A DNA stretch of 64,000 nucleotides, from the NCBI GenBank assembly GCA_951406725.2, contig OX597818.1, positions 103,230,001-103,294,000 of the forward strand, read 5' to 3'. Source of the DNA: Octopus vulgaris. Lineage: Eukaryota. The notes under the pieces were generated by a model. It worked only from the letters and a program-made list of their open reading frames with translations. It did no database searches and was not told where the DNA came from. The position numbers and the translations under genes are program-made. Of the stretch, positions 10,779 through 56,784 are shown piece by piece (positions within the stretch are counted from its first letter, which is position 1; every line of letters begins with the position of its first letter).

Positions 10779-11562
10779 TAAGAAAGTTTGTTTGTGAAAG
10801 CACGTGGGTGAATATATAAGAAAATAGTAAAGAGTGAAAACACGACAGAAGGCTTAAATGTTAAAGAATATATATATTTGCGTCAATATTTGCGTCAATT
10901 TTCCCCTTCTTATAATGACATAATTTTATAATTTTTAAAGAAACTTTCAAAAATGAATTGGGTACAAATAATCCCTTCCTTAAGAAAATTACAATAAATA
11001 AAAAGAAAAACCAAACAACCCACGAACAACCCCCAACTATCCTCCATACACTAAAAACAGAAATCACCCACAACCAACCTTTGCAAACCACGCAAGACCT
11101 AACAGGGAACTAGCTGACAGAGGACGCGTCTATGAAAGAAATTACACCAAAAACAGAACACACCAACAACATCCTAATACCAGACCCAACCACCATACAG
11201 CACAATACGACACTAGAATAAGAAATACACCGCACACAAATCGCTACTACCCCATAAACCAAAATTACTGGTCCCCACTAAACACAAGACAAACGCAAAA
11301 AAACACTATGTCAAGTAACATCCCACATACAAGCAGTTCGAAACAAAAATATTTCCCATACAGAAATTTTACACACACCACAAACAATAACAACCATAGA
11401 TTCTCACACACACACAACGATCAGGGGCAACAATACCACCACTCCCCTGACCAAATACCACACAACCTCACAGACAACTCATACAAACAAAATTACACCC
11501 AACATTTTTTAGCCAGGGACCAGGGACACCAGGACACAGGCTGGAACCTAGTAATAAGGAAA

Positions 11563-13959
11563 AACCGAAGATAATCAATCTTTCAACCAAACCTCTTTCT
11601 AACATAAAAATTGACATCCTCGCAAAAGGGCTCAAATTTACACCAACTCCACGCAGAGCCAACCTAAATGAACTCAAGGATAATATAACAGAATTTTGCA
11701 GAAAATTAAGACTAGCAGAAGCATCAACCAGTTTCAATACTGAAGATGAATCACTAGTCAAGAACAAAAGTGAACACATCCCACACAGAGGAAGAAATAA
11801 AGATCTTGACGAATTCTGTAACCACATTGAGAACTTCCCATACTATACATAAACCATACTATACATAAACAGAAAGCTAACCCAAATTTTAACACTACAC
11901 AATGGAAAGAACTGATAGAACTTCAAAATGATGAGGATATAACCATTAAGGAAGCAGACAAGGGAAATGCAGTTGTAATAATGGATACATCATACTACAG
12001 AAATATTGTAATTTCCTTGCTTGATGACAACCTACATTATGAAAAAATTACCAACTACACCCCACAAAAAATAATGAAAACTCTATCTTCACTAATTAAA
12101 ACCCATGAAAAGGAACTAACAACCAAAGAGATTGACTTCCTAACAAACTTTAAATGCAAACCTAGCCTTTTCTATGGTCTGCCAAAAATTCATAAAAGTC
12201 AAATTATAAATGAAACCATTAAAAAATCACCAAAGACATACATACACACACCCAACCCGGGGGACCTAAAACTACGACCCATTGTAGCTGGCCCATCCTG
12301 TGAAACACACAGACTAAGTCTACTTATGGACATCCTCCTGAAACCCTTCCTTAAACATATCGATAGCCATATCAGAGATGACTTAGATATGTTAAATCAC
12401 CTTCCAAAAAGAGCCAAGGAAGAAACAATCCTGGTTTCATTTGATGTAGTCAACTTGTATACCAGTATACCTCATAATTATGGACTGGAGGCAATACAGT
12501 TCTGGTTAGACCAATTCCCGGAAGAAATACCAAAAAGGATCAGTAAAGAATTCATTACTAAGTCAATTGAATTCATCCTACACAATAACCACTTCATGTT
12601 TGACAATACATTTTACCGTCAAAAATCCGAAATTGCTATGGGTACAAGGGCAGCACCAGTCATTGCGAACTTAACAATGGGATACATGGAAATAATCATT
12701 TACCAGGAATCTTTATCAATCTTTGGAAACCCCTCTCTCAATACATAAAAGAGAACTGGAAACGATTCTTGGACGATTGTTTTATTCTCTGGAATGAAAA
12801 CACAGATAAACTCTTAAAATTTAAAAACCTATTGAACAGCATAAACCGAAATATACAGTTCAAAATGGAATACAACCAAAAGGAGCTCCCGTTCTTGGAT
12901 ATACTAATTAAAAGAATTAACCTTAAAATAGAAACAGACATTTTCTACAAAGCCACAGACGCCAAACAATACCTTCTCTTTAATTCATGCCACCCAAGAC
13001 ACATTAAAACAAACATCCCCTTCAACCTTGCAAGAAGGATATGCACAATGGTGTCAGAACAAAATACCAGGAACTTCAGACTGCAAGAACTCAAAAACAC
13101 CTTAATTGACAGACATTACCCAGCTCAACTCATAGAGGATGGGATCAGACGTGCAACAGAAATCAACATAGAAACTTTAAGAAAAGTTCAACACAACAAC
13201 ACACCTTCCCCGAAAATACTAGCTTACATATCTACATACAACCCCAGAAACAAAGAAGCTTTCACCATCATCACCCAGAATTTACCAATACTTCATATAA
13301 ACCCCAAATTAAAGGAAATTCTAAACATACACCAACTCATTAAAAGCTACAAACAGCCTAAATCACTTAAAAAGATTCTCACAAAGGCAAAATTATCTTC
13401 TGAAATTACGGATGCAAAAGTAAAAAAATGTGGTAGATCGAACTGTGCAACATGTCCTAACCTACTAGAAGGATCAGAATTCTTCTTTAAAGAGGGACAG
13501 AAATTCAAGATCAAATCTAACTTTACTTGTATCTCTGAAAACATAATTTATGTTATTAAATGCTCGGGCTGCCACCAAGACTACGTGGGGTCCACGGGAC
13601 TATCACTCAGACGTAGATGCACACTGCATCGACAACAGATTGCATTCCCAGAATATAGAATGATACCTTTTAGTGAGCACATTGAGAAATGCGCAAAGCA
13701 ACTACAACCACAATTTTTAATCTTTCCATTTTACCAATGTGCTTTCGGATCATCAACACAAATTAGACTAAACAAGGAAACATTCTTCATTGAAAAGTAC
13801 AAACCCAGACTCAACTATCCAAACATAATAATACAGAGAAATTCACACCAAGAGGAAAAGGAAAAAAAAATTTTTAAGCGATTATCTCCCTTACACCGGA
13901 AGAAATCACGCACTACCTTCCCTTATTTAGAACTCTCCGTAGCAAAAAAACAAGGATAA
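11563..13959 (+). pseudogene. PLE polyprotein (RT + CxxxxCxxC linker + GIY-YIG endonuclease), two frameshifts
   Basis: KIINLSTKPLSNIKIDILAKGLKFTPTP; IKEADKGNAVVIMD; FYGLPKIHK; LRPIV; SFDVVNLYTSIP; Q..EIAMG; WKRFLDD; TDIFYKATD; SCHP; KCGRSNCATC; NIIYVIKCSGCHQDYVGST...R...H. A 16-bp duplication (ccatactatacataaa, 11838-11869) and an indel near 12735 break the frame. Confidence 0.93.
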
Positions 13960-13986
13960 CGCTATTAAAGATAAACATTACGTCGC

Positions 13987-14025
13987 AAGAAATTTGAAGA
14001 GCTAAATGCGAAACCGGTCTTTCTT
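13987..14025 (+). ncRNA. Minimal type I hammerhead ribozyme-like motif in the PLE 3' pLTR (C3U variant)
   Basis: AAGAAA-T-TTGAAGA-GC(TAAAT)GC-GAAA-CCGG-TC^-TTTCTT; helix I 6 bp; palindromic helix III ACCGGT; predicted GUC cleavage after 14019. Confidence 0.7.
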
Positions 14026-14158
14026 TAAAAATTATAAAATTATGTCATTATAAGAAGGGGAAAAAAGTTTTTTCCAATATTCTCCAGACATATTGACGCA
14101 AATATATATATTCTTTAACATTTAAGCCTTCTGTCGTTTTTTCACTCTTTACTATTTT

Positions 14159-14210
<52 letters not shown>

Positions 14211-19913: not shown

Positions 19914-20103
19914 TATATATATATATATATATATATATAGTAGTTGTATACTGTCAACTTAATGTGACAGTCCCATGAAGGGAATCACACCACTGCTATT
20001 TAGCCCTAGAATGCATGAACGCTTCCTGTCGGCCTTGACACATTTCACGTGTCGTTATGTTTACAGGGGGGGTAGACAAGCACCTGCACCCAGCTAAGCC
20101 TGC

Positions 20104-20149
20104 ACTCAGAGAATAGTTTCTGAGTCTTTGCTCGTCATCAGTCTGGAGT
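20104..20149 (-). ncRNA. Minimal type I hammerhead-like motif
   Basis: Minus strand: ACTCCAGA-CTGATGA-C-GAG(CAAAGA)CTC-A-GAAA-CTAT-TC^-TCTGAGT. Confidence 0.7.
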
Positions 20150-20150
20150 A

Positions 20151-20182
<32 letters not shown>

Positions 20183-20188
<6 letters not shown>

Positions 20189-20314
20189 TATATAGAAGGA
20201 GCTTCTACAGGACTAGTACTGTTTCATTCAAGAGAAATCTTCAGGAAGCTTCCTGAAGATTTCTCTTGAATGAAACAGTACTAGTCCTGTAGAAGCTCCT
20301 TCTATATAATAAAT
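20183..20314. repeat. 132-bp perfect spacer-less palindrome containing an HHR-like core on both strands
   Basis: Centre gaag|cttc at 20248/20249; CTGAAGA-T-TTC(TCTT)GAA-T-GAAA-CAGTACTAG-TC at 20253-20286. Confidence 0.92.
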
Positions 20315-20380
20315 TAATTTTACTCTGCTATGTATTGAGTACCTTACTTACTGTGGTTAACCCCGAATCAACCCGGGACC

Positions 20381-20433
<53 letters not shown>

Positions 20434-20631
20434 AGGTTTGGAGATGATGTACATGTATTTTATATTCGAAGAAATGAGGTACTCAGAAAATCGGATGGTT
20501 TATATTTACATATATTTATTTGTATATTACATTTTTTATACATCATATAACTTAGATCATGTATTAGCGCTTTGTCCCATTCTAGTGGGGTTTTCAAACC
20601 AAACTAAGTTCATGTGTGAAAGATTTTGACC

Positions 20632-20662
<31 letters not shown>

Positions 20663-20664
<2 letters not shown>

Positions 20665-21188
20665 CAATAATAATTCTCTAAAAGAGATATAGACAGTAAC
20701 TGCTCGATAACATAAGGGACTAAAGCCATCTGAATATGGCTAGGGACAGGGCAGGGTGGTGGGGGTGTTACTGTTGCATTTAGCCCCAGGCGAACATCGA
20801 CGTCACCAGAAAGGCTCGACACCGTCACGGTGTCCTTAACCTGCAAAGGGAGGTAATTCCCCGATGAAGCGGAAACCACACACGGACCATGGTTTCAAGG
20901 TGTATTGCCTATCGTCGGCGTGTGGTAGGCTTCCGCTTCCTCGACGAATTCTCACTCTGCAGGATATTCATATATAGATTTTCAAGCAAAATACATTTGC
21001 TGATTTCGAAAATCTGTTCGAAAGCAATAATAATTCTCTAAAAGAGATATAGACAGTAACTGCTCGATAACATAAGGGACTAAAGCCATCTGAATATGGC
21101 TAGGGACAGGGCAGGGTGGTGGGGGTGTTACTGTTGCATTTAGCCCCAGGCGAACATCGACGTCACCAGAAAGGCTCGACACCGTCAC
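20663..21188. repeat. 166-bp identical direct repeats (20663-20828 and 21023-21188) flanking an HHR hairpin
   Basis: Exact match by eye at a 360-bp offset. Confidence 0.92.
20875..20926 (-). ncRNA. Minimal type I hammerhead-like motif (U4C variant) with extended helix I
   Basis: Minus strand: ACCACACG-CCGACGA-T-AGG(CAATACA)CCT-T-GAAA-CCATGG-TC^-CGTGTGTGGT; helix extends via ttccgcttc/gaagcggaa. Confidence 0.7.
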
Positions 21189-21269
21189 AGTTTATTTTGG
21201 TGGATATGAAAGGAAATGTCACCAGTCCACAATCAGCGTACTAATGTGACACTTGTTTACTGGTCATGC

Positions 21270-21440
21270 TTCACAAACCCTGCGAATGAATTCTTGCAGT
21301 TCTAAGCAATGCTGATTTTTGTACCTTCACATTTGCAGCGATCTTTTTCAGCCATGTTTGTAGGGGAAAGTATTTTGCGTAGGATATGGGCAGTTCCCAT
21401 GAGTATTATCTTTTGATCTTCTGCCATTTTGGGGTTCCCT

Positions 21441-21442
<2 letters not shown>
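21270..21442 (-). mobile_element. Two R4/Dong-type LINE C-terminal fragments next to (TAA)n
   Basis: Minus strand: GNPKMAEDQKIILMGTAHILRKILS and TWLKKIAANVKVQKSALLRTARI, matching the QK..LLGTA.ILR C-terminal motif. Confidence 0.7.
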
Positions 21443-21507
<65 letters not shown>

Positions 21508-21518
21508 CATCATCATCA

Positions 21519-21574
<56 letters not shown>

Positions 21575-21899
21575 AATCTATTGCATCCTTCTTTAGATAA
21601 CAGTAATGTTATCTTATGGTTGTGGAGAGGGTGACTAGCCTCACATTTTGAGAATCTCCTTTATGATTTGTGCAGTATACAGTTTGGCAAATTTCCACAT
21701 GTCGAAAACGCGTATTTCAGTTTAATATTCTTCCGCCCTTTATGTTGCAGTTTAAATGTGATTTTGGTTGAATGTATTACCACAGGAACAATTATTAACT
21801 ACGTCTTTCACGATAGTTTCATCTTTGAAGCAAGGTCTGATATTTTCGGATTTCCTGAATTTCAGTGGTATGCATTTTATTGTTATATAGAACTTTTGA

Positions 21900-22185
21900 T
21901 GTCTATAATCCCATGTTTCCCCTCTAAAATCGTATCGGTTACCACTTTTCATATTATCAGCGTGAACGGAGTAATCTCAGAAAATCCTGTAATTATCATC
22001 TTCATACCACTTTTCTATCTCTTTGTATCCGCCCACTCGTCTATCATTCCCTTGTATGCATTTACAGGTACAGTCATGCCTGTACTTGTACTCGTTTTGT
22101 GCTAAATTGCAGTATTTAATAAAGAAATGATTAATACTTGATATTTTCGTCTCTCGTCCCGCACATTCAACATTCTTGATTGGGT
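21900..22185 (-). mobile_element. Fossil R4/Dong-type LINE: CCHC knuckle + start of the restriction-like endonuclease
   Basis: Minus strand: EC*MCGTRDENI/INH..KYCNLAQNEYKYRHD...KWYEDDNYRIF*DYSVHADNMKSGNRYD. Confidence 0.7.
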
Positions 22186-22599
22186 TTTATTAAATTTTTT
22201 GTTTATAGAGCTCTTTCTAATAGATTTTCCCTGAGCATATATAACTACCTGCTTATTTTTTCGTTTCGGGTTTCTATTTCCCAGGCATAGCTATCGTTCT
22301 TTGCGTGCAACATCCTTAATTCTTTGGCAGAATTGGGCATGCAATTCCCTCTTCTTCTTTTTTAAATTCTCCTGCTATTTTAGTAATATTTTTAACATTT
22401 CTGGCAGAAGACTTTCTTTCTTTCCTACGCACAACATAATTTTACCAGCATGATATTACAGTTCTCTTGCTGTCTTTCGCGTTTAACGCATATCTCATAC
22501 TCCTTTCTTGTTCAGTGGAGCCGATTGATATTACTTCTAGGGTATAGCAAGTTGCACAGTTTGAACATATTATTTTCAATATTTCGCCGTCCTAAGATG

Positions 22600-22800
22600 A
22601 CAAGCTGGCAGAATCGTTAGCTCGATGGGCGAAATGCTTAGCCCCATTTCGTTCGTCTTCACTTTCCGAGTTCAATTTCAGCCGATGCCGATATTACCTT
22701 TCACCCTTTCTGGGTTGGTGAAACATGTATCGAGTCGATCTGATCGACTAAACCGCATCACCTGAACTTGCTGGCTCGGTGCCAGAATTTGAAACCAATA
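22600..22800 (+). mobile_element. Degenerate SINE family B
   Basis: agctggcagaatcgttagc...gagttcaatt...gccagaatttgaaacc. Confidence 0.7.
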
Positions 22801-23542
22801 TTACGGCATCCTACCTGTTGATGTAAATTCCGATTCCCCACATATTTAACGTATTTTTCGAAACAGTCATAGAAAGAAAATCGGAAATTTATTTGAAAAT
22901 ATAATTTAAGATATTTCCAGAGATAAATGATTTTCAGAATATATTGTCTTCCTTAAATATGGGAGACAAAGTTAGATTCCACCGAGGTCTAAAGCCAGTG
23001 AATAAGCTTTTTAATCGAAACCACAAATTTGTTGTGTCATATAGAAGGAAAACCGAGAGACAAACATGATTTAGTTGGAAACGGTTGTACTGTGGCGATT
23101 GGCTGACATACAAATTTCTGTAATTAGAGTGTTTTCGTTTGAACTTAGTTCAGTGTAGCGGCATGGGTATTTGCTCTGAACACCGCAGTAGTATTCTATA
23201 ATAGTAATACAAACAATACTCTAGTAATACAAATGATTATACGAACCCTTGCCAAATGGCAACAGATTCTAAGGCAATTGTATGCAAAATGTGAACAGCA
23301 AAATCACAGCAGTTGCAATCATAATGTAAACAATCGCTAATATATGAACGACAGAGAAAAAAACAACAACAAAATGAAATACTGAAGGTGTAATGCCTTT
23401 ACCAACAGCGACGACAGCAATAACAACGTTAACAACGACAGTTGCAGTGATAACATCAACACTATGAAGAGTGGTAAGACCAACATTAGCAACCTGACGG
23501 GTTGCTACTCAGTCTAATGTCAAGCCGGTTGAGCATCAACAG

Positions 23543-23925
23543 AGGGCGCAATGGCCCAGTGGTTTGGGTAGCGGACTCGCAGTCGGAGGATCACGGTTTC
23601 GATTCCCAGACCGGGCGTTGTGTGTGTTTATTGACCGAAAACACCTAAAGCTCCACGAGTCTCCGGCAGGGGATGGTGACGACCTCTGTTGTACTCTTTC
23701 GCTCCAACTTTCTCTCACTCTTTCTTCCTGTTTCTTGTCCCCGACTTCCTACGCAACCGCTGAGCCTGGATGCGCATTCATCCATCCGTCGATGCTCTTG
23801 GTGTCGGGAGTTGACCTGCTTTCTCTTCTGCGGGTCTTACGAATAGCAAAGGACCACGTTTCGGACTTCTCCCACTACAGAGAGGCGATCTTGCGAGCCC
23901 TGTGACTAAGACCGCTTCGCTCAAC
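23543..23925 (+). mobile_element. tRNA-derived SINE family C
   Basis: Head gcgcaatggcccagtggtt..ggactcgc...ggtttcgattccc; near-identical copies at 24681 and 51525. Confidence 0.88.
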
Positions 23926-24680
23926 AAACAAACAAGCATCAACAGAGCAAAACGACACATCTCTAATACGATGAAAACTAGCGTCTCTACTCTGGTAGAC
24001 GGCTATATACTTTTGAAACTGGCAACAAATCACTGTAGCAAGACAGATCATAACCTGTCTCATTTGCTGGAGTAGCAATGTGAGTGAAAAACAACAACAA
24101 CAGAGGTAACATTCAATGCATGCGAAATTCTCACGTGAAAGAAAACTGCAAAGTTCACGCCAGAAGTGTAGCTGTAAGTGTTTCCAAATTCTAAAACATG
24201 CATACTAATAAACATATGTTTCGTCGTATGTGAGAAAAGTATATGCCAATCTAATTATATAAATGATCTGGGAGCCGTTAAGGGAATGACATATTTTGAC
24301 TCTTACGGTCGCATTACAATAGACAAATCTGAAGTTCCTCTGAGATGAGGACACTTGCGAGAACCTACATTTCTAAATTATCATTAGCAAAATGTTGGTA
24401 ATAGGTTTCTTATGCAAAATCGAATTTGGAGTGTATTACTAAAGCGGGGAAATAGGCATGAAATATAAAATGGCTGACATCTTGACAAACCAAGGGAATG
24501 AACTGTCGTAGTAAAGATTTGAAAAAATGATTCGTGACAGATGTGGAGCTCCTTATCCTAACGTATAAGATTAATAGTATTTGTTACTTCAACGAGCTGA
24601 AGGTATATGTGGCGGGTATGTGATATCACCAAACATCTAAGGATGTTTGCTGACTACAGAAACAGCATGAACAGCAAGTG

Positions 24681-25050
24681 GAGGCGCATTGGGCCAATGG
24701 TTAGGGCAGCAGACTCACGGTCGGAGGATCACGGTTTCGATTCCCAGACCGGGCGTTGTGTGTGTTTATTGAGCGAAAACACCTAAAACTCCACGAAGCT
24801 CCGGCAGGGGGTGGTGGCGACCTCTGTTGTACTCTTTCGCTCCAACTTTCTCTCACTCTTTCTTCCTGTTTCTTGTCCCCAACTTCCTACGCAACCGCTG
24901 AGCCTGGATGCGCATTCATCCATCCGTCGATGCTCTCGTTGTCGGGGGTTGACTCGCTTTCTCTTCTGCGGGTCTTACGAAGAGCAAGGGACCACGTTTC
25001 GGACTTCTCCCATATTGCGAGCTCTGGGACGAAGACCGTTCGCTCAACAG
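24681..25050 (+). mobile_element. tRNA-derived SINE family C
   Basis: Same body as 23543 copy; (CAA/CAG) tail. Confidence 0.88.
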
Positions 25051-25544
25051 CAACAGCAACACCATCAACAACAATATTGAATAAGCTTTTGATCACACAT
25101 TTCAAAACGAGGCCTTCTCAATTGAACCTTCAAGGATACCGTTATACAGACTTCCCATCCAACTTAACCTTTAGATTTTTTTAAACGCCAGCGCTTTATA
25201 ATTTGAGTATGATTTTATTAATATTTCTAGCATTTAGTGGTTTAATTTGTACGATCAGTTCTTGCTTTTTTTTTGCTTGTTTGTCTTATGCGTTTATAGT
25301 TAGTATCTGAATATTAATGTGATGTTGGTATATCAATCGAAAATCACAAAAAACAGCACTGGCAGATTAATGCCAGACAGCTATTTAAATATTGATATAT
25401 CCATATAATGTTTATTAAAAGGAACTAAACCATTATCTGTAAATAGTGCCGCACTGGTATATGAATAAATAAATATATTCACATATATATACATACACAC
25501 ACACACACATATATATACATACACACACACACATATATATACAT

Positions 25545-25643
<99 letters not shown>

Positions 25644-25773
25644 CATACATACATACATACATTCATATACATATGTGTAGATAAACAGATAGATAGGTAT
25701 ATATGTATATATATATATATACATACATACATACATACATATACATAAATGTAGATAAACAGATAGATAGGTA

Positions 25774-25813
<40 letters not shown>

Positions 25814-26556
25814 CATAAATATACTTGTGTACATATATATATGTATACATATGTGTCTCTGTGTGCATGAGTGTAGAAACAGAGACACGTTCATCGCAAG
25901 GAAGCGGAGGAATAAATAAGCATGTACATATACACACATATAATAAATATATTCCTGTACTACTCACGTACTATTTACAAACTCGAAGTATCTATAAACT
26001 TAGTCGAATTTAAAAAAAAAAAATAGAATAAACGTCTGACCTATAACAGTTTGATAAAAGTGAAGACTTAATGTATTAACGTTATATTCACTACTTAGGT
26101 TATTTATCTCTAAGCACATGAACGGACATGTCCTAAGACATAGATGACGAATGAATTGAATATTCCATAGGGCCACCTTGAGCATTTTCAATATTGCACA
26201 AATTTCACCTCAAAATTAAATCTGTTGGCTAAAAATAAACTGAAACACACATATCCAAGCCAAGCATACAATTGATCGGATATCTCAACCTCATTGTATG
26301 GTATAGAGGATTAGTTACTTTACAAAATAGAAATATTAAAATTTCTAATTATCTCTAAAGGAGACCACGGTTAGCGGTACTGGATATTAATTGTTTTTGC
26401 CAAGCTAATATGGCAGTCCAGAAATATAGGACGAATACTGCCGTTGATTAGCTCCAAGAGGCCATCGACTCTAGCCAGCTATGTGACACTCGAACCTGTG
26501 TCCTGTATAACTTTCGAACAGGGGAGGTCAGCTGCTTCCCCTTGTTCGTCAGGCAT

Positions 26557-26597
26557 CTGCAGACTAGTTTCAAGGCATTTGCCCCTTATCAATGCAG
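26557..26597 (-). ncRNA. Minimal type I hammerhead ribozyme, U3-A8 covariant
   Basis: Minus strand: CTGCA-TTGATAA-GGGG(CAAATG)CCTT-GAAA-CTAG-TC^-TGCAG; perfect 5-bp helix I; palindromic helix III ACTAGT. Confidence 0.8.
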
Positions 26598-26670
26598 AGC
26601 AGCCGAACCCCCAGCATAAATAATCCTTCGAACAGACGGTTAGTAGCGACGCCTGCTGGGTTCGGCTGCT

Positions 26671-56662: not shown

Positions 56663-56784
56663 ACGCTTACAGCACCTAGGTTTCCCAAGCGGTTACCCAT
56701 CTAAGTACTAACTAGGCTCGACGTTTTCTTAACTTCGGAGTTCGGACAGGAACCAGTTCTTTCAACGTGATATGGCGTTTGAAC
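56663..56784 (-). pseudogene. 5S rRNA: 5S rRNA pseudogene / divergent copy
   Basis: Minus strand: ...GCCATATCACGTTGAAA...CCGAAGTTAAG.AACGTCGAGCCTAGTTAGTACTTAGATGGGTAACCGCTTGGGAAACCTAGGTGCTGTAAGC; single copy, several substitutions, no T-run terminator. Confidence 0.88.

What the first reader, a model, noticed from the sequence alone, without database searches (positions are those of the whole stretch)
19958..26530. Conserved structured motif with twister-like topology opposite the hammerhead in three divergent elements
Seen at 19958-20075, 20730-20856 (partly repeated at 21090) and 26405-26530. The same ordered blocks occur on the plus strand: (T)AA-TRTG-RC ... optional hairpin (TCCC/GGGA vs GTCC/GGAC) ... 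ACTG-n-TTAGCYC-YAR ... CATS-RAC ... GACAC-loop-GTGTC ... GGG(A)GGT, then an antisense HHR 20-35 nt later. The spacers are unalignable. Inference: UAA-P2-GC-P3-P4(loop ..AGC)-P2'-GA is the order of elements in twister ribozymes, but the T1 pseudoknot and P1 are not evident. This may be a new ribozyme variant or an RT-recognition/promoter element. If catalytic, these elements would have different ribozymes in each polarity.
Basis: partly seen in the sequence, partly recalled or inferred. Interest (0 to 1): 0.75.

Follow-up and report, generated by a model that had tools for sequence, protein, structure and literature searches.

The report
Hairpin domain of hammerhead retrozymes
The motif is not a twister ribozyme but a chain of conserved hairpins shared by thousands of small hammerhead-carrying jumping elements, lying between the hammerhead and the two fixed ends of the insertions, where it likely positions the borrowed Penelope-type reverse transcriptase.

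Summary
The shared blocks and the opposite-strand hammerheads are real, but the twister reading fails. The three elements belong to three high-copy families of non-coding repeats (tandem unit about 360 nt where measured), i.e. non-LTR retrozymes; 15 subfamily groups were sampled. The blocks read as twister P2/T2/L4 are arms of local hairpins with compensatory changes (294 of 315 majority pairs Watson-Crick). T1, P1 and P4 pair in 0 of 15 groups and the catalytic GA occurs in 4 of 15. A twister descriptor scores the copies like shuffles (mean 16.7 of 23), against 20-23 for twister-model hits in the same genome. Insertions have two fixed 3' ends about 44-57 nt apart, scattered 5' ends and inversions, the signature of internal initiation by Penelope-like (PLE) reverse transcriptase. 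The hammerhead strand is therefore the template. The hairpin array sits between the hammerhead cut and the first start site and likely recruits the RT (inferred, 0.6). The working strand only leans to the hammerhead side, and no autonomous partner carrying the motif was found. The scan noted hammerhead-bearing PLE pieces in another genome (e1-9873284), not this motif.

The parts
19940..20150 (-). Retrozyme family c1 copy: short 3' end at a (TA)n tract, 5'-truncated, decayed (91-93% to its best relatives)
19951..20072 (-). c1 hairpin domain: H4 19951-19970, H3 19971-19983, H2 20001-20034, H1 20037-20053, G-run 20066-20072
20105..20146 (-). c1 type I hammerhead CUGAUGA..GAAA; predicted cut between 20111 and 20110; the palindromic helix III carries a private change in this copy
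20663..21022 (-). Retrozyme family c2, one full 360-nt unit with the long 3' end at (TA)n; relatives 99-100% identical
20663..20706 (-). c2 44-nt tail between the long (about 20663) and short (about 20707) fixed ends; holds a TCTCT/AGAGA hairpin
20724..20852 (-). c2 hairpin domain: H4 20724-20741, H2 20781-20816, H1 20818-20834; H3 replaced by a G-rich stretch (plus strand)
20868..20940 (-). c2 type I hammerhead with long helix I, core CCGACGA..GAAACCAUGGUC; predicted cut between 20885 and 20884
21023..21191 (-).
26326..26610 (-). Retrozyme family c3 copy with the long 3' end; tail about 26326-26385
26399..26526 (-). c3 hairpin domain: H4 26399-26414, H3 26416-26432, H2 26449-26481, H1 26485-26502
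26555..26600 (-). c3 type I hammerhead with U3-A8 core UUGAUAA..GAAACUAGUC; predicted cut between 26562 and 26561
   Evidence: U3-A8 variant in PMC4209133
26658..26799 (+). Inverted partial c3 copy (PLE-type 5' inversion)

Best explanation
The motif is a conserved multi-hairpin domain of non-autonomous hammerhead retrozymes that likely serves as the binding and positioning site for a Penelope-like reverse transcriptase-endonuclease borrowed in trans. Shown: non-coding units of about 360 nt in tandem; a type I hammerhead on the minus strand; then, 5' to 3' on that strand, hairpins H1, H2 (two stacked stems, GAU loop), optional H3 and H4; a fixed short end 10-15 nt past H4 and a fixed long end about 44-57 nt further; AT-rich or (TA)n targets; scattered 5' ends; inversions that mostly carry the tail at one end only; copies that run through the hammerhead cut site into further units. 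Inferred: multimeric transcripts self-cleave (the palindromic helix III suggests dimeric cleavage) and may circularise; the PLE protein binds the hairpin array, nicks AT-rich DNA on both strands and starts cDNA inside the RNA at the short and long sites, usually one per target end; copying a circular or uncleaved multimeric template gives tandem arrays.
For: 294 of 315 group-majority pairs in H1, H2 outer, H2 inner and H4 are Watson-Crick across 15 groups, with compensatory swaps (H4 C-G to T-A in 3 c1 groups; H2 outer C-G to T-A in c3 and c3b; three or more H2 inner pairs) (registers set by eye). On the unadjusted MAFFT alignment of 24 copies, 86.3% of cells pair and 23 cells change on both sides, against 82.3% and 8.3 in shuffles (0 of 500 for both) and 23-45% paired when slid. 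c2 ends: 11 long, 11 short, 1 other in 12 pattern-found loci, with scattered opposite ends; two end classes also in c1, c3, d, c1b, c3b. Tail at exactly one end in 10 of 10 pattern-found c2 inverted pairs and 64 of 78 pairs overall. Minus-strand hammerhead core in 116 of 198 copies (many are truncated before it), 101-114 nt from the AGC anchor. Autonomous Neptune-like PLEs of this genome show the same order ORF, hammerhead, short end, tail. In a lizard PLE the tail is the interval between two internal RT starts, and the inferred protein-binding region (within the first 172 nt of the ORF) spans the hammerhead cut and those starts (PMC11167929). Non-WC majority pairs are G-U on the hammerhead strand 11 times, on the other strand twice.
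Against: No autonomous PLE carrying the motif in its own pLTR was found: none among 20 copies of one family, 30 GIY-YIG loci (one holds a separately inserted copy) or the PLE pieces near sampled copies. The strand evidence is weak. The 11:2 count shrinks to about 5 against 1-2 independent events once shared ancestry, CpG decay, tiny groups and pattern ascertainment are allowed for (my estimate). Folding z-scores were lower on the plus strand in 6 of 8 families, and ensemble probabilities lean only slightly to the minus strand. Two old copies (L162, L225) show a half-change in H4 that is a wobble only on the plus strand. The number of covarying pairs (8 against 5.5; 58 of 500) is not above shuffles, relatedness inflates the other measures, and H1 is nearly invariant. 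RNAalifold on the raw alignment recovered only H1 and part of H4.
Confidence: 0.6

Rival explanations
1. The hairpins act at the DNA level: as a fold of the plus-strand cDNA used in second-strand synthesis or endonuclease recognition, or as an internal promoter of the tandem array.
For: Most stems are strand-symmetric; plus-strand folds are as stable and H4 and H2 also form with DNA parameters. PMC11167929 cites the D. virilis tail as needed for endonuclease recognition of DNA. PLE pLTRs hold internal promoters (PMC8557442 passages).
Against: Compensatory pairs need a single-stranded nucleic acid, so a double-stranded promoter does not explain them. Wobble pairs lean to the RNA strand.
Confidence: 0.2
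2. The structure is an RNA element for stability, circularisation, hammerhead folding or host-protein binding, not for RT recruitment; the start sites are set by the tail region alone.
For: Local autonomous PLEs have two ends without this motif. Retrozyme circles are thought to need a block on their own cleavage (PMC7229834 Discussion).
Against: The short end keeps a near-constant distance from the motif in all six families measured (about 60-70 nt from the AGC anchor in five; c2 is longer by its insertion), as expected if the structure positions initiation.
Confidence: 0.13
3. The plus strand is a twister or another self-cleaving ribozyme, giving a ribozyme in each polarity.
For: An AA, a 3-bp RUG/CAU match and a GC/GC match exist; T2 could pair in 12 of 15 groups. 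P1 is dispensable for twister (PMC5408937).
Against: T1 0 of 15, P4 0 of 15 (another register 5 of 15), 4-bp P2 0 of 15, GA 4 of 15, the L4 adenine before AGC 1 of 15. The G-to-A change that breaks T2 in c1 groups is compensated inside H4 instead. P2 and T2 show no compensatory change (their 3' columns are invariant, so that test has little power). Descriptor scores 15-18 of 23, equal to shuffles, against 20-23 for 10 of 10 control hits. None of the 10 fetched hits (of 11) of the genome-wide twister-P1 search overlaps the motif.
Confidence: 0.03
4. The blocks are only inherited from a common ancestor, or the copies are dead-end 5'-truncated pLTR pieces of autonomous PLEs made afresh each time (reading of e1-9873284 for another genome).
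For: The families are homologous and intermediate copies exist.
Against: Units close on themselves without an ORF (period 360 in 43 and 359 in 8 c2 steps, overlapping loci counted; 361 in c3, 354 in c1b). c2 copies are 99-100% identical at dispersed loci. Paired positions change together while spacers diverge.
Confidence: 0.04

Closest known systems
Non-LTR retrozymes of animals (PMC7229834; bioRxiv 10.64898/2026.07.22.740005)
   Same: Non-coding tandem units of about 360 nt, a type I hammerhead with short palindromic helix III per unit, dispersed monomers to multimers, co-occurrence with PLEs.
   Different: In the parts read, those papers describe no conserved structure beyond the hammerhead and no PLE-type two-start or tail signature; here 15 subfamily groups share a covarying hairpin domain, and no homologous pLTR was found.
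Poseidon PLE of Anolis carolinensis (PAc), internal RT initiation (PMC11167929)
   Same: The hammerhead is followed by a region inferred to bind the protein, then two RT start sites that bound a tail; AT-rich targets.
   Different: PAc's region lies inside the ORF, its first start is about 85-92 nt after the cut and PLE tails are given as 30-40 nt. Here the RNA is non-coding, the first start is about 170-177 nt after the cut and the tail about 44-57 nt. No sequence comparison with PAc was made.
Twister ribozyme (RF03160 and relatives; PMC5408937)
   Same: Superficial order AA..GC..hairpin..AGC..CAU on the plus strand.
   Different: No P4/L4, no T1, no conserved catalytic GA; the blocks are arms of local hairpins.
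3' RNA structures that recruit RT in R2 and in LINE/SINE pairs (recalled)
   Same: A structured cis element next to the RT start, kept by a non-autonomous partner.
   Different: Initiation here is internal and at two sites, on a tandem or circular template.

Membership tests
Twister ribozyme | Stem P2 (4 bp) after the N^AA site | tested here: inconclusive
   3 of 4 pairs possible in all 15 groups, fourth never; no compensatory change
Twister ribozyme | Stem P4 with the conserved L4 loop | tested here: not met
   P4 fully paired in 0 of 15 groups (another register 5 of 15); L4 adenine in 1 of 15
Twister ribozyme | Pseudoknot T1 | tested here: not met
   0 of 15 groups; 15 of 45 pairs
Twister ribozyme | Pseudoknot T2 | tested here: inconclusive
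   Possible in 12 of 15; broken in 3 c1 groups where the change is compensated in H4; both GC blocks sit in other stems
Twister ribozyme | Catalytic G and following A after P2' | tested here: not met
   GA in 4 of 15 groups, G alone in 12 of 15
Twister ribozyme | Whole-motif match in any register on either strand | tested here: not met
   15-18 of 23 features, as in shuffles; controls 20-23. No twister family among Rfam hits, though those scans also missed the hammerheads
Twister ribozyme | Self-cleavage | not testable with these tools
   Needs in vitro transcription
Non-LTR retrozyme | Short tandem unit without coding frame | tested here: met
   Periods 354-361 nt in c2, c2b, c3, c1b, 355 in L299; no period measured for c1 or d; no PLE frame contiguous with the units
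Non-LTR retrozyme | Type I hammerhead in the unit | tested here: met
   Core on the minus strand in 116 of 198 copies, in 10 of the 15 clusters; activity untested
Non-LTR retrozyme | Expression as circular RNA | not testable with these tools
   Only assembled contigs of runs guessed to be RNA were served
PLE-mobilised element | Two fixed 3' ends bounding a tail, 5' truncation, inversions, AT-rich targets | tested here: met
PLE-mobilised element | Homology to the pLTR of an autonomous PLE | tested here: inconclusive
   Not found in the Neptune-like families sampled; other PLE clades were not reached

The most novel reading that the evidence does not exclude
The H1-H2-H4 array is a discrete RT-binding RNA domain that holds a dimeric Penelope-type RT so that its two active sites start at two offset positions on one template, one per target DNA end. 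This would explain the PLE tail and the inverted 5' ends in one step. It would do so without sequence homology to its partner's pLTR, by structural mimicry.
Probability: 0.25. Interest if true: 0.6.

Novelty: new variant of a known kind. Interest (0 to 1): 0.33.

Why it matters
How animal retrozymes are mobilised is open; the 2026 preprint argues for PLE machinery from co-occurrence and pLTR phylogeny only. These families carry the PLE two-start signature directly and offer a covarying RNA structure at the place where the one biochemically studied PLE is thought to bind its template. That gives a short non-coding RNA with defined stems to mutate, and a very young family (c2) to test. The claimed second ribozyme is not there, which removes the more exciting reading.

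Tried and rejected
Rfam scans of the window and of 19 loci gave no ribozyme family, hammerheads included, so they are weak negatives. RNAalifold on the raw alignment missed H2 inner and outer because registers differ between groups. Homologues outside this genome: metagenome scans gave 0 and 1 matches, the one match scoring only 9.6 bits; 45 viral-contig matches all failed the profile. These collections hold little animal DNA, so range across species is unknown. Partner search: PLE pieces beside copies in L018, L135, L156, L244 and L368 are chance neighbours or insertions into TA tracts or UTRs. Expression: no RNA holder listed; four runs guessed to be RNA gave a joint going back 360 nt, three as one closed 390-nt contig, which fits a circle, a tandem transcript or DNA alike and is not used as evidence. 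A long plus-strand helix competing with H4 was checked and exceeded H4 in only 4 of 15 groups as plus RNA. A Pol III B-box-like TTCGAA occurs in c3 and d-type groups but not in c1 or c2 (by eye). Earlier-findings look-ups by sequence and by place were empty.
Full report
Observation. The three block series are in the window as described, and the AGC block is enriched (5 against 0.81 expected; the fifth match is unrelated). Each element has a type I hammerhead on the minus strand with a short palindromic helix III: CUGAUGA in c1, CCGACGA in c2, UUGAUAA in c3. The U3-A8 core of c3 is a known natural variant (PMC4209133 passages).

What the elements are. Searches of the 2.8-Gb genome gave 2680, 1010 and 2202 first-look candidates for c1, c2 and c3, of which 40 each were scored. 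Block patterns gave 415-1999 exact matches each and none for reversed controls. c2 is very young (99-100% identity) and forms head-to-tail arrays of 360 nt; periods of 354-361 nt occur in other groups. From 219 distinct copies, 198 fell into 15 clusters and 21 singletons were dropped. No unit is contiguous with a coding frame. This fits non-LTR retrozymes (PMC7229834, passages and Discussion), recently argued to be non-autonomous PLEs (bioRxiv 10.64898/2026.07.22.740005, parts 1-3 of 5 read, supplements closed). The host looks like a cephalopod from its repeats; that is my impression, not a tested result.

Polarity and ends. One side of the insertions is fixed at two positions; the other is scattered and often inverted. 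In 12 non-overlapping pattern-found c2 loci that I picked, the fixed side was long 11 times, short 11 times and other once. In 30 BLAST-found loci, which were selected for a long end, it was long 30, short 17, other 2. Two end classes also appear in c1, c3, d, c1b and c3b. The stretch between the two ends (44 nt in c2, about 50-57 nt elsewhere) is itself conserved and holds a TCTC/GAGA hairpin. In inverted insertions the tail is at exactly one end in 10 of 10 pattern-found c2 pairs and in 64 of 78 pairs overall, with 10 tailless and 4 tailed at both ends (this set includes selected loci, a few overlaps and mixed-family pairs). Targets are AT-rich or (TA)n. These are PLE hallmarks (PMC8557442 passages). 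In the Anolis PLE the tail was shown to be the interval between two internal RT start sites downstream of the hammerhead, both DNA strands are cut and extended, and the protein-binding motif is hypothesised to lie in the first 172 nt of the ORF (PMC11167929, parts 1-2 of 4 read, supplements not read). The hammerhead strand is therefore the RT template, and the motif lies between the cut and the first start.

Structure. In block-anchored counts on 179 of the 198 copies, with registers set by eye per group, H1, H2 outer, H2 inner and H4 gave 294 of 315 Watson-Crick majority pairs, 11 wobbles on the hammerhead strand, 2 on the other strand and 8 mismatches. Compensatory swaps include GCCA/TGGC against GTCA/TGAC in H4, TAGCC/GGCTA against TAGCT/AGCTA, and GGAGAC/GTCTCC, GGAAAC/GTTTCC, GGAAGC/GCTTCC and AGAGGC/GCCTCT in H2. 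On the unadjusted alignment of 24 copies the same structure beat all 500 shuffles in paired cells and in doubly changed cells, but not in the number of covarying pairs (58 of 500); three c2 rows are misaligned there. The functional strand is not settled: z-scores were lower on the plus strand in 6 of 8 families, ensemble probabilities lean only slightly to the minus strand, and the wobble count is inflated by kinship and by search patterns that fixed one arm.

Twister test. Twister needs P2, P4 and pseudoknots T1 and T2, with L4-P4/L1-T1 as the key architecture; P1 is dispensable (PMC5408937 passages). The blocks assigned to P2, T2, L4 and P2' are arms or loops of H4 and H2, and P2 and T2 show no compensatory change. 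A 23-feature descriptor of my own, free in register, scored the window copies 16-18 on either strand, 30 other copies 15-18 (mean 16.7 plus, 16.3 minus) and shuffles 16.7 on average. Ten twister-P1 model hits from this genome, all below Rfam's cut-off, scored 20-23.

Partner. Several autonomous Neptune-like PLE families, one with intact 781-aa frames, have the layout ORF, hammerhead, short end, tail but no trace of the motif in their own pLTR. The partner may be an unsampled clade, or the retrozyme may mimic a structure without sequence homology. This gap is the main weakness of the RT-recruitment reading.

Literature. Eight full-text searches listed no paper that describes this hairpin domain or a two-start signature in retrozymes. 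The library lacks most subscription papers and repeat-database entries, and supplements of the preprint and of PMC11167929 were not seen.

Verdict. A known class of element, a refuted twister reading, and a conserved hairpin domain that I did not find in print and that likely positions a PLE reverse transcriptase. Interest 0.33.

Noticed in passing
L340-L349 (e.g. G000:C17:38628135-38628189): Twister-P1-like motifs with intact cores (20-23 of 23 features) lie at the start of repeated sequences elsewhere in this genome; some begin just before the cleavage site, as expected for self-cleaved 5' ends of a LINE-like element.
   Followed up: partly
window 10780-14210: Neptune-like PLE (frameshifted RT and GIY-YIG-type ORF on +) with a sense hammerhead near 14000-14030, an inverted 5' pLTR and its own 44-nt tail; it lacks the motif.
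   Followed up: partly
window 20193-20304: Perfect palindrome holding a hammerhead core (CUGAAGA..GAAA) on both strands, probably an inverted 5'-truncated piece of another PLE or retrozyme family.
   Followed up: no
window 20885-20918: The youngest family (c2) carries a non-canonical hammerhead core, CCGACGA (U4 to C), in 18 of 32 scored c2-group cores; whether it cleaves is open.
   Followed up: no
window 21190-21450: Minus-strand fragment ending in ILMGTAHILRKILS, resembling the C-terminus of R4/Dong-type LINEs (label recalled), abutting the truncated c2 unit and interrupted by a (TAT)n tract.
   Followed up: no
L299:3215-3570, L006, L152: A further hairpin (AGTGAA/TTCACT type) between the tail and the hammerhead is shared by several families, so conserved structure extends around the whole unit.
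   Followed up: no
L356, L361 and others: A Neptune-like PLE family with many intact 781-aa frames and a tail of about 35 nt; a candidate active enzyme in this genome.
   Followed up: partly
window 56667-56783: 5S rRNA-like sequence on the minus strand (70.5 bits).
   Followed up: no
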